IMG/VR virus record: IMGVR_UViG_3300044641_005618
Direction: 5' to 3' (one strand)
Source: a virus
Taxonomy: Duplodnaviria; Caudoviricetes
DNA length: 64,000 bases
The notes under the pieces were generated by a model, which saw only the letters and a list, made by a program, of their open reading frames with translations, searched no databases and had not been told where the DNA came from. Positions 28,813-28,925 of this stretch are shown one piece after another (the stretch's first letter is position 1; every line of letters starts with the position of its first letter). The position numbers and the translations under genes are program-made.

Positions 28813-28925
28813 GGGAGAAGTTTTTGGACTTGTGCGTACTGATAACAAGTCCTTGGCACCAGTTAAACTACCCAGGACCCTACGTTATAGGCTCCCAGGG
28901 TCGGACTTGAACCGACATTTCTCCC
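28813..28925 (-). ncRNA. Circularly permuted tRNA-like gene opened at the anticodon loop
   Basis: Order on the minus strand: GGGAGAA / T-arm GTCGG-TTCAAGT-CCGAC / CCTGGGA / 15-nt linker / TCCTGGG-TA-GTTT-AACTGGT-[insert]-AAAC / TTCTCCC. Confidence 0.75.

What the first reader, a model, noticed from the sequence alone, without database searches (positions are those of the whole stretch)
28813..28925. Circularly permuted tRNA gene, pre-opened at the anticodon loop
On the transcribed strand the 3' half comes first: GGGAGAA, T-arm GTCGG-TTCAAGT-CCGAC, acceptor 3' strand CCTGGGA. A 15-nt hairpin linker follows, then the 5' half: TCCTGGG, TA, D-stem GTTT, AACTGGT, an 8-bp GGACTTGT/ACAAGTCC hairpin insert, AAAC, TTCTCCC. 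The acceptor pairs 7/7 (two G-U) and the anticodon stem TTCTCCC/GGGAGAA 7/7, with the RNA ends where the anticodon loop should be. Permuted tRNA genes are established in some algae and an archaeon, and permuted tmRNA in some bacteria; I know of no permuted tRNA in a phage. RNase P/Z removal of the linker would give a two-piece tRNA resembling an anticodon-nuclease product. It could be an uncleavable decoy, or a substrate for ligation into a mature tRNA (inference).
Basis: partly seen in the sequence, partly recalled or inferred. Interest (0 to 1): 0.9.

Follow-up and report, generated by a model that had tools for sequence, protein, structure and literature searches.

The report
Inside-out tRNA look-alike in phage
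A giant lake-water phage carries, inside its tRNA operons, a small conserved gene family for a tRNA body wired back-to-front, with a capped acceptor end and no anticodon; it is most likely a tRNA-shaped decoy or adaptor RNA of the kind known from bacterial YrlA RNAs, not a working tRNA.

Summary
On the minus strand, 28925-28813 reads: 7-nt closing strand, AU, canonical T arm, acceptor 3' strand, 15-nt hairpin cap, acceptor 5' strand, UA, D arm with an 8-bp hairpin in the D loop, closing strand. RNAfold gives this fold (z = -4.0).

It is not a one-off or a mis-assembly. I found eight members in three paralogous groups, in related phage contigs whose neighbouring protein is down to 53% identical. 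Across them 95.6% of pair cells stay paired, and 9 of 31 pairs change on both sides (0 of 500 shuffles reach this).

No member has an anticodon loop, and the flanks are not conserved. It is therefore a conserved tRNA mimic, not a decoding permuted tRNA gene. Its connectivity (terminal stem, T arm, acceptor-like hairpin, D arm) is that of YrlA, described in bacteria and phages in 2014. It fails the other YrlA tests: no Rfam hit, no Ro60-binding motif, and it is not next to the phage's Ro60-like gene.

This scan has met permuted tRNA mimics in other phages, always with a conserved "handle". This family has none. The relative also encodes a permuted two-piece tmRNA and two RNA ligases. Whether the cap is cut is open.

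The parts
28919..28925 (-). Closing stem, 5' strand (GGGAGAA); stands where the anticodon stem 3' strand of a tRNA would be
   Evidence: pairs 7/7 with 28813-28819; G-C to A-U covariation at one pair in paralogues
28917..28918 (-). AU spacer (shortened variable region); the U can form the Levitt pair with A15
   Evidence: AU precedes the T stem in all 8 members
28900..28916 (-). Canonical T arm: GTCGG / TTCAAGT / CCGAC, with G53-C61 and T54 T55 C56 A57 A58
   Evidence: second stem pair is U-A, C-G, G-C or A-U in different members
28893..28899 (-). Acceptor-like stem, 3' strand (CCTGGGA), directly stacked on the T stem
   Evidence: three of the 7 pairs change on both sides among members
28878..28892 (-). 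Cap or linker of the acceptor-like stem: G73, a CCTA-TAACG-TAGG hairpin, then G. Length is 15 nt here, 16 in G001, 5 (UCAAU, UCCAU) in L173 copy A and in copy B, and 36 in copy C
28871..28877 (-). Acceptor-like stem, 5' strand (TCCTGGG)
28820..28870 (-). U8 A9 and the D arm: stem GTTT/AAAC, loop with A14 A15 G18 G19 A21. An 8-bp hairpin (28852-28826) is inserted in the variable part of the D loop. Its loop (28844-28834) contains a run, AUCAGUACG, that is conserved in the distant orthologue while the stem covaries
   Evidence: copy C has a normal D loop without the insert
28813..28819 (-). Closing stem, 3' strand (TTCTCCC), directly abutting the D stem
28809..28812 (-). 4-nt tail (ACAA) up to the 5' end of tRNA-Asp(GUC) at 28808. 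RNase P cleavage of tRNA-Asp would define the 3' end of the element (inference). The tail is 4-7 nt in all orthologues of copy A

Best explanation
The element is one member (copy A) of a lineage-specific family of circularly permuted tRNA mimics without an anticodon, encoded inside the tRNA operons of a roughly 280-kb lake-water phage. Shown: the family has a conserved four-way fold made of a 7-bp terminal stem, a T arm, a 7-bp acceptor-like stem closed by a cap, and a D arm. All nucleotides needed for the tRNA elbow are kept, and the helices are maintained by compensatory changes. Inferred: it is co-transcribed with the neighbouring tRNAs and released when RNase P cuts the tRNA-Asp that starts 4-7 nt downstream. 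It folds into a tRNA-like L shape whose acceptor end is capped and whose anticodon end is an open helix. It acts as a tRNA-shaped ligand (decoy, sponge or adaptor) for a protein that recognises the tRNA body, not as a decoder on the ribosome. The best precedent is YrlA, the tRNA-mimicking Y RNA of bacteria and phages. A candidate partner is the phage's own Ro60-like protein, but I give that specific pairing only about 1 in 5. The sequence looks derived from a phage tRNA, with a D arm and 3' half closest to the phage's tRNA-Gly and tRNA-Arg genes, probably through tandem duplication and loss.
For: The fold is predicted thermodynamically (relatives). There are eight members. Copy A: window, G001, L171 (same as L067), L170, and L173 at 99.5 bits. 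Copy B: G001, L067. Copy C: G001 and L173. On these, 95.6% of cells are paired, against 34-64% for slid controls; 9 pairs and 15 cells change on both sides; 0 of 500 shuffles reach this (four-sequence version). Window versus G001: the flanks are 98-100% identical, yet the element differs at 8 positions, and every difference keeps pairing. These are U-A to C-G in the T stem, two changes to G-U in the acceptor, one in the cap hairpin, and an indel that shifts the register but keeps 7 pairs. Synteny is conserved: copy A lies directly upstream of tRNA-Asp in a relative whose neighbouring protein is 53% identical. Copy C differs at only a handful of positions between those two phages, linker included. 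tRNA tertiary-pair nucleotides are invariant. Rejoined halves are called tRNA by ARAGORN. No anticodon loop and no conserved flanks. The same connectivity is described for YrlA (PMC4201824). The region is present in metatranscriptome assemblies from four studies.
Against: There are no data on RNA ends, abundance or binding; RNA libraries were available only as contigs and may contain DNA. The Rfam YrlA model gives no hit on any copy. The Ro60-binding motif GNCGAAN0-1G is absent. The phage's Ro60-like gene is 19-78 kb from the three copies in G001, and the RNAs next to it carry a different module, which this family lacks. Some haplotypes (L067/L171, L170, X11) lost a G in the closing stem, leaving an A.C mismatch, and one has an A.C in the outer T-stem pair. 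Constraint on the terminal helix is therefore not absolute. The family was found only in this phage clade.
Confidence: 0.62

Rival explanations
1. Two-piece tRNA body. RNase P cuts 5' of the acceptor 5' strand (between 28878 and 28877). The 3' side is trimmed to the discriminator and receives CCA. This gives two RNAs held together by the 7-bp acceptor and 7-bp closing helices: a CCA-ended tRNA body without an anticodon, like the tRNA-like domain of a two-piece tmRNA. It could then be charged, or could serve as bait for enzymes that act on tRNA 3' ends.
For: The acceptor-like stem is exactly 7 bp, stacked on the T stem and followed by 2 nt before the D stem in the copy A and B members; copy C has one mismatch. 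M. smegmatis YrlA, which has a 7-bp acceptor-like stem, is cut by RNase P and gets CCA in vivo (PMC4201824). G001 encodes a permuted two-piece tmRNA of cyanobacterial type (ARAGORN 'Permuted'; Rfam RF04321 at 67.9 bits against a gathering score of 47), so the host presumably matures permuted tRNA-like precursors in this way. The cap varies widely in length and sequence (5, 15, 16, 36 nt), as expected for a discarded spacer. In copy B the cap reads U-CCA-U, i.e. discriminator, CCA and position -1. Per an earlier first-reader note (e1-5382053, not checked here), the window also encodes a CCA-adding enzyme.
Against: Two members have only a 5-nt cap, a poor substrate for 5' and 3' processing. The 36-nt cap of copy C is almost unchanged between distant phages, which argues that it is retained. 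43 of 45 canonical tRNAs of the window have U right after the discriminator, while most members of the family have C there. No split form could be looked for in raw reads. The acceptor stems carry no complete anticodon-independent identity set: no G3:U70 and no long variable arm.
Confidence: 0.25
2. Y-RNA-like partner of the phage's Ro60-like protein. The terminal stem and tails bind the ring protein, and the tRNA-like module recruits a second, tRNA-binding factor, as proposed for Rsr-YrlA.
For: The connectivity is identical to YrlA. G001 encodes a 492-aa DUF2828 + DUF7788 (vWA) protein whose model matches only Ro60/TROVE structures over its full length. The top 12 PDB hits include Ro60 of Thermus phage phiLo and Xenopus and human Ro60, with E from 1e-7 to 5e-4. 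The closing stem is the most sequence-conserved helix of the family, GRGAGAA/UUCUCYC.
Against: The model is mediocre (pLDDT 62, TM about 0.4). The Pfam TROVE search found nothing. The gene is 19-78 kb from the copies. The tRNA-like RNAs 1-2 kb downstream of that gene carry an AAAAG, 19-nt hairpin, UCAGCAA module that is absent from all members of this family. The Ro60 motif of YrlA is absent, and the Rfam YrlA model does not hit.
Confidence: 0.2
3. True permuted tRNA gene. The ends are trimmed and sealed (for example by the phage's T4 Rnl1-type ligase) or the precursor is circularised, the cap is removed, and a decoding tRNA results.
For: The tRNA body is complete. G001 encodes a T4 Rnl1-type ligase (PF09511, 52 bits) and an Rnl2-type RNA ligase (PF09414, 114 bits). 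The window encodes a Thg1-like protein. In copy C of G001 the five bases after the closing stem happen to read UUUUA, which would fit positions 33-37.
Against: No member has conserved loop nucleotides; U33 is missing in copies A and B. The 3' tail of copy A is ACAA, CACAA, CCACAA or CAUAA, and the UUUUA of copy C is UCGGU in L173. The 5' flank varies from 23 nt to over 130 nt after the previous gene. The closing stem is 7 bp and directly abuts the D stem, and the variable region is only 2 nt. There is no bulge-helix-bulge motif and no RtcB. No joint appears in RNA contigs.
Confidence: 0.05
4. Non-functional debris: the leftover 3' half and 5' half of two tandem tRNA copies after deletions in a recombining tRNA array.
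For: tRNA arrays of these phages are mosaic: G001 and the window differ in the order and content of operons. Copy A is more polymorphic than its flanking tRNAs, and some haplotypes carry mismatches in the closing stem.
Against: Three paralogous groups, about 70% identical, keep all five helices through compensatory changes. An orthologue persists at the same place in a phage whose neighbouring protein is 53% identical. Copy C is nearly invariant between those phages. Polymorphisms between the window and G001 all preserve pairing.
Confidence: 0.06

Closest known systems
YrlA (Y RNA-like A; Rfam RF02553; Chen et al. 2014, PMC4201824; crystal structure preprint 10.1101/312249)
   Same: Same connectivity: a stem formed by the 5' and 3' ends stands in for the anticodon stem, followed by the variable region, T arm, a hairpin that corresponds to the acceptor stem, and the D arm. 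The tRNA tertiary-pair nucleotides are kept, including the 15:48 Levitt pair. Also found in phages. A member with a 7-bp acceptor-like stem is cut by RNase P and receives CCA.
   Different: No match to the Rfam model. No GNCGAAN0-1G motif. Only a 7-bp terminal stem with no extended Ro60-binding module. Embedded in tRNA operons, not next to a Ro60 gene. Multi-copy (three paralogous groups). A hairpin is inserted in the D loop in copies A and B.
Circularly permuted tRNA genes of Cyanidioschyzon merolae and other algae, and of one archaeon
   Same: Gene order is 3' half, linker, 5' half. The acceptor strands pair across the linker. The likely origin is tandem duplication.
   Different: Those genes encode every nucleotide of a decoding tRNA. 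They are circularised at a bulge-helix-bulge motif by the splicing endonuclease and a ligase, and the linker is then removed. Here the anticodon loop is absent, no such motif exists, and the host is a bacterium.
Two-piece (permuted) tmRNA of alpha-proteobacteria and picocyanobacteria (Rfam RF04321, RF01851)
   Same: Permuted tRNA-like domain: the T arm and acceptor 3' strand lie upstream, then an intervening segment, then the acceptor 5' strand. A helix replaces the anticodon stem. The relative G001 carries such a gene.
   Different: No G3:U70, no tag reading frame, no pseudoknots. A true D stem is present. About 113 nt, against about 260-380 nt.
Handle-bearing permuted tRNA mimics beside Ro60-like genes in other phages
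   Same: An inside-out tRNA body with capped acceptor stem, located in phage tRNA clusters. This phage also has a Ro60-like gene.
   Different: Those carry a conserved handle: an A-tract, a helix, then a motif such as ACAGCAA or CAGTAAA. This family has no such motif. In G001 the handle (AAAAG, hairpin, UCAGCAA) sits on other tRNA-like RNAs next to the Ro60-like gene.

Membership tests
Canonical tRNA (Rfam RF00005) | Contiguous cloverleaf in the order acceptor 5', D arm, anticodon arm, T arm, acceptor 3' | tested here: not met
   No ARAGORN call and no Rfam tRNA match even at E up to 10. The order is permuted.
Canonical tRNA (Rfam RF00005) | 7-nt anticodon loop with U33 and an anticodon | tested here: not met
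   Absent in all 8 members; the flanks are not conserved.
Canonical tRNA (Rfam RF00005) | Conserved D- and T-arm nucleotides that build the elbow (U8, A14, G18 G19, G53-C61, T54 T55 C56, A58) | tested here: met
   Present in all members. Rejoined halves are called tRNA by ARAGORN.
Permuted tRNA genes (algal/archaeal type) | Gene order 3' half, linker, 5' half, with pairing acceptor strands | tested here: met
Permuted tRNA genes (algal/archaeal type) | Termini form a bulge-helix-bulge motif, and joining them yields a complete decoding tRNA | tested here: not met
   By inspection of the flanks: a plain 7-bp helix with unpaired, non-conserved tails and no loop nucleotides.
Permuted tRNA genes (algal/archaeal type) | Circular RNA intermediate | tested here: inconclusive
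   No joints in four metatranscriptome runs, but only assembled contigs were available.
YrlA / bacterial Y RNA | tRNA-like domain in the order terminal stem, T arm, acceptor-like hairpin, D arm | tested here: met
   compared with the description in PMC4201824.
YrlA / bacterial Y RNA | Match to the family covariance model (RF02553, gathering score 69 bits) | tested here: not met
   No hit on 28300-29300 at E up to 10. In G001 no hit overlaps any of the three copies.
YrlA / bacterial Y RNA | Ro60-binding motif GNCGAAN0-1G near the 5' end | tested here: not met
   Inspection of the 5' flanks of copies A, B and C.
YrlA / bacterial Y RNA | Encoded next to a Ro60/Rsr gene | tested here: not met
   No TROVE hit. 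The Ro60-like DUF2828 gene lies at about G001 62.1-63.6 kb; the copies lie at 41.0, 43.6 and 141.3 kb.
YrlA / bacterial Y RNA | Bound by Ro60 in vivo | not testable with these tools
   Needs immunoprecipitation.
Two-piece tmRNA | G3:U70 acceptor identity, resume codon and tag reading frame | tested here: not met
   The acceptor pairs at position 3:70 are C-G or U-A. There is no tmRNA call by ARAGORN or Rfam in the window.
Handle-bearing phage Y-like RNAs (this scan's earlier notes) | Terminal helix flanked by an A-tract and a (U/A)CAG(C/U)AA motif | tested here: not met
   A regex over the window and G001 finds the motif on tRNA-like RNAs at G001 59.9 and 60.9 kb only, not at any copy (flanks).

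The most novel reading that the evidence does not exclude
The element is matured the way two-piece tmRNA is: the cap is excised by RNase P and 3' trimming, and CCA is added. This would give a two-piece tRNA body without an anticodon but with a CCA end. The phage would use it off the ribosome, either as bait for defence enzymes that attack tRNA 3' ends or as a substrate that its Rnl1-type ligase seals into a working tRNA. It would be the first split or permuted tRNA maturation pathway in a bacterial virus.
Probability: 0.12. Interest if true: 0.8.

Novelty: new variant of a known kind. Interest (0 to 1): 0.55.

Why it matters
If the RNA is expressed, this is a new, covariation-supported RNA family that no Rfam model recognises. 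It shows a second route by which phages turn tRNA genes into tRNA-shaped non-decoding RNAs. The same operons also hold tRNA look-alikes whose anticodon arm is replaced or truncated, and the same phage lineage has a Ro60-like protein with its own handle-bearing tRNA-like RNAs, a permuted tmRNA, two RNA ligases and a Thg1-like enzyme. Together they point to a large viral investment in manipulating or protecting the host tRNA pool. The family is a clean test case for two questions. Are such mimics decoys for tRNA-targeting defences? Can a capped 7-bp acceptor stem be opened by RNase P in vivo? It also matters for annotation: standard tRNA finders miss all of these genes.

Tried and rejected
- Rfam on the whole window at gathering thresholds, and on 28300-29300 at E up to 10: nothing on the element.
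- YrlA model on G001: only partial T-arm and dimeric-tRNA noise.
- GenBank phage collection (blastn): only ordinary tRNA matches.
- Exact and gapped DNA patterns over IMG/VR: only this phage clade.
All but one contig (L067) were chance matches by the covariance model.
- The stricter pattern over 596 Gb of bacterial genomes gave 7 hits. All were chance: no tRNA and no model match, with about 4 expected by my estimate.
- Model R1 on more distant relatives reached through the Thg1-like protein (G002-G006): no member.
- TROVE and RtcB searches in G001: negative.
- RNA evidence: four metatranscriptome runs and four DNA runs were available only as contigs. They gave no joints and no usable ends. Contig breaks coincide with haplotype bubbles, so I draw nothing from them.
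- Complement of the conserved hairpin loop (CGTACTGAT): not enriched in the window.
- The 280-kb ENA scaffold of an 85%-level relative could not be searched whole.
- Hypotheses rejected: a dimeric-tRNA artefact (no partner halves; the strands covary with each other); a group I or permuted intron-exon arrangement (flanks too short, no intron match); an anticodon-nuclease decoy in the strict sense (there is no anticodon loop to be recognised).

Full report
**Setting**

The window comes from a large phage. ARAGORN finds 45 tRNA genes, all on the minus strand, and Rfam adds a few aberrant ones. The window's own assembly is not held. The nearest record is G001 (IMG/VR, 277 kb, CheckV 98% complete), which is 98% identical around the finding. 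The runs that hold the stretch are almost all lake-water metagenomes.

**The observation**

- GGGAGAA, then AU
- T arm GTCGG / TTCAAGT / CCGAC
- acceptor 3' strand CCTGGGA
- a 15-nt linker that forms a hairpin
- acceptor 5' strand TCCTGGG, then UA
- D stem GTTT, and a D loop with A14 A15 G18 G19
- an 8-bp hairpin with an 11-nt loop
- A21, D stem AAAC, then TTCTCCC

tRNA-Asp begins 4 nt later. An aberrant tRNA-Ala-like gene ends 23 nt upstream. Neither half can therefore belong to a conventional tRNA.

RNAfold returns this structure as the minimum-energy fold. The z-score is -4.0, and none of 200 shuffles folds as well. Neither ARAGORN nor Rfam recognises the element, even at E up to 10.

**A family, not a singleton**

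G001 has the orthologue. It differs at eight positions, although the flanking tRNA-Asp is identical. Every difference keeps pairing:
- U-A becomes C-G in the T stem.
- C66 to U and A72 to G both create G-U pairs in the acceptor.
- A to G creates a U-G pair in the cap hairpin.
- One base is inserted in the cap.
- A UU insertion leaves a 7-pair closing helix in a shifted register.

BLAST of the element against fetched loci then revealed a paralogue elsewhere in G001, copy B at 141258-141359 on the minus strand. A covariance model built from the three sequences (R1) found a third paralogue, copy C at G001 41022-41138.

Proteins next to the element led to further contigs:
- L170 and L171 carry more haplotypes of copy A.
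- L173 comes from a phage whose neighbouring protein is only 53% identical. It has an orthologue of copy A at the same place, directly upstream of tRNA-Asp (99.5 bits), and an orthologue of copy C.
- L067, a separate lake contig, has copies A and B.

**Structure statistics on the eight sequences**

- 95.6% of pair cells form standard pairs. With the partner slid by 1-3 columns this falls to 34-64%.
- 9 of 31 pairs (15 cells) change on both sides.
- No shuffle out of 500 reaches the observed paired fraction, covariation score or number of double changes.
- Compensatory changes occur in the closing stem (G-C to A-U), the T stem (U-A, C-G, G-C, A-U at one position), the acceptor-like stem (pairs 1:72, 2:71 and 3:70) and the D-loop hairpin.

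The alignment was fitted to the model, which favours the structure. The slid controls and the direct reading of the sequences agree with it, however.

A descriptor for the whole architecture reaches full score only at copies A and B in all of G001.

**What is conserved and what is not**

Invariant or nearly so:
- UAGUUUAA (positions 8-15), G18 G19 and AAAAC
- the closing helix GRGAGAA/UUCUCYC
- the AU before the T stem
- the T loop

These include every nucleotide needed for the tRNA elbow and the Levitt pair.

Variable:
- The cap: 15-16 nt as a hairpin in the window clade, UCAAU in L173 copy A, UCCAU in copy B, 36 nt in copy C.
- The D-loop insert: an 8-bp hairpin in copy A, a different short hairpin in copy B, none in copy C.
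- Everything outside the closing helix.

In L173 the insert's stem has changed with compensation, while a run in its loop, AUCAGUACG, is kept. That run is unexplained.

**No anticodon**

No member has anything like an anticodon loop. The 3' tails of copy A are ACAA, CACAA, CCACAA or CAUAA, and those of copies B and C are unrelated. The 5' flank is 23 nt after the previous gene in the window but over 130 nt in L173.

I rejoined the halves in silico with five arbitrary bases. ARAGORN then calls copy C a tRNA as it stands, and calls copies A and B once the D-loop hairpin is removed. The family is thus a full tRNA body that lacks positions 33-37.

Its 3' half and D arm resemble the phage's own tRNA-Gly and tRNA-Arg genes. 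This fits an origin from a phage tRNA.

**Comparison with known systems**

The connectivity is the one described for YrlA: terminal stem, variable region, T arm, a hairpin in the acceptor position, D arm. YrlA is the tRNA-mimicking Y RNA found next to Ro60/Rsr in more than 250 bacteria and phages. The M. smegmatis member, with a 7-bp acceptor-like stem, is cut by RNase P and receives CCA in vivo (PMC4201824).

Membership fails on the other criteria:
- No match to RF02553.
- No GNCGAAN0-1G motif.
- No adjacent Ro60 gene.

The Pfam TROVE search found nothing in G001. Following an earlier first-reader note, I found a 492-aa DUF2828 + DUF7788 protein at about 62-64 kb. Its AlphaFold model is mediocre (pLDDT 62). 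Even so, its twelve best PDB matches are all Ro60/TROVE proteins aligned over the full length, including Ro60 of Thermus phage phiLo. So the phage lineage does have a Ro60-like protein.

The tRNA-like RNAs 1-2 kb downstream of that gene carry an AAAAG, 19-nt hairpin, UCAGCAA module in place of the anticodon loop. None of the permuted copies carries it.

Earlier follow-ups of this scan describe permuted tRNA mimics in other phages, always with such a handle and beside a Ro60-like gene. Those are unchecked notes. What I tested is that this family lacks the handle and the adjacency.

**Processing context**

- G001 encodes a permuted two-piece tmRNA. ARAGORN calls it 'Permuted' with tag ANNIVKFERIAVAV. 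Rfam tmRNA_permuted scores 67.9 bits against a gathering score of 47, and cyano_tmRNA scores 54.7. This suggests a picocyanobacterial host and shows that permuted tRNA-like precursors are handled in this system.
- G001 also has T4 Rnl1-type and Rnl2-type RNA ligases and no RtcB.
- The window has a Thg1-like gene.
- None of the 45 canonical tRNAs encodes CCA, and 43 have U after the discriminator. Most members of the family have C there.

These facts keep the two-piece reading alive without deciding it. The 5-nt caps and the near-invariant 36-nt cap of copy C argue for a retained cap. The wide variation in cap length, the exact 7-bp stem and the U-CCA-U cap of copy B argue for excision.

**Expression**

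Contigs from four metatranscriptome studies cover the element, in the G001-like and an intermediate haplotype. No joint was seen. Only contigs were available, so strand, ends, level and rare forms cannot be read, and DNA carry-over cannot be excluded. DNA runs added further haplotypes. Some of these weaken the closing stem: a lost G leaves an A.C mismatch.

**Verdict**

It is a circularly permuted tRNA-derived gene, but the evidence points to a non-decoding tRNA mimic of the YrlA kind. It does not point to a tRNA awaiting ligation, and it is not without precedent in phages.

My probabilities for the readings (the first three overlap; the two-piece and Ro60-partner forms are versions of a mimic):

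| Reading | Probability |
|---|---|
| Conserved mimic acting as a protein ligand | about 0.6 |
| Two-piece processed form | about 0.25 |
| The ligand's partner is the Ro60-like protein | about 0.2 |
| Ligated decoding tRNA | about 0.05 |
| Debris | about 0.06 |

It is a new variant of a known kind: handle-less, multi-copy and operon-embedded.

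Noticed in passing
G001:104340-104723 minus strand (L157:4340-4723); outside the window: The close relative encodes a permuted two-piece tmRNA with tag ANNIVKFERIAVAV. ARAGORN calls it 'Permuted'; Rfam RF04321 scores 67.9 bits against a gathering score of 47; cyano_tmRNA scores 54.7. 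The ANNIV... tag and the model point to a picocyanobacterial host.
   Followed up: partly
G001 about 62134-63612 minus strand (L150:802-2280); RNAs at G001 minus strand 60851 and 59937: A 492-aa DUF2828 + DUF7788 (vWA) protein whose model matches only Ro60/TROVE structures over its full length. 1-2 kb downstream lie two tRNA-like genes in which an AAAAG, 19-nt hairpin, UCAGCAA module replaces the anticodon loop. Homologues number more than 7000 in the protein collection.
   Followed up: partly
window 29022-28949 and 24477-24405, minus strand: Two paralogous tRNA-Ala-like genes with G3:U70 acceptor stems (GGGCTTA/TAGGTCC and GGGGGCA/TGTCTCC), anticodons UGC and CGC, and an aberrant D region. 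ARAGORN misses them here (Rfam 17.8 bits), although the CGC one is called tRNA-Ala in L171. Each is followed by a TTTCGC-TAA-GCGAAA hairpin.
   Followed up: partly
window 28700-28640, minus strand: A tRNA-like gene with acceptor stem, mini D arm and T arm, but with the anticodon arm replaced by a GTCGCGAC stub. Its T stem shows a compensatory U-A to G-C change in G001.
   Followed up: partly
window minus strand, T arms at 31354, 31114, 30795, 28519, 23976, 22574: Six further orphan canonical T arms outside any called tRNA, against one on the plus strand. The operons hold many non-canonical tRNA-like genes.
   Followed up: no
window 28844-28834, minus strand; L173:9036-9048: The loop of the D-loop hairpin keeps the run AUCAGUACG across distant orthologues while its stem covaries. 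It partly resembles the UCAGCAA handle motif. Its complement is not enriched in the window.
   Followed up: partly
all 45 tRNA genes of the window: No tRNA encodes CCA, and 43 of 45 have U immediately after the discriminator. This is a very uniform 3' processing context.
   Followed up: yes
G001:71728-72207 and 86036-86602; window 33646-34413: Rnl2-type (PF09414) and T4 Rnl1-type (PF09511) RNA ligases in G001, and a Thg1-like protein in the window. There is no RtcB. Together these form a tRNA repair toolkit.
   Followed up: partly
G001 39-48 kb (plus strand) and 121-142 kb (minus strand), compared with window 4-34 kb: The tRNA arrays are mosaic. The window joins operons that in G001 lie 100 kb apart on opposite strands. 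G001 has an extra operon (Lys-UUU, copy B, Tyr, Met) that is absent at the matching place in the window.
   Followed up: partly
L173:8860-8967: About 110 nt of unknown nature are inserted between the spacer hairpin and copy A in the distant relative.
   Followed up: no
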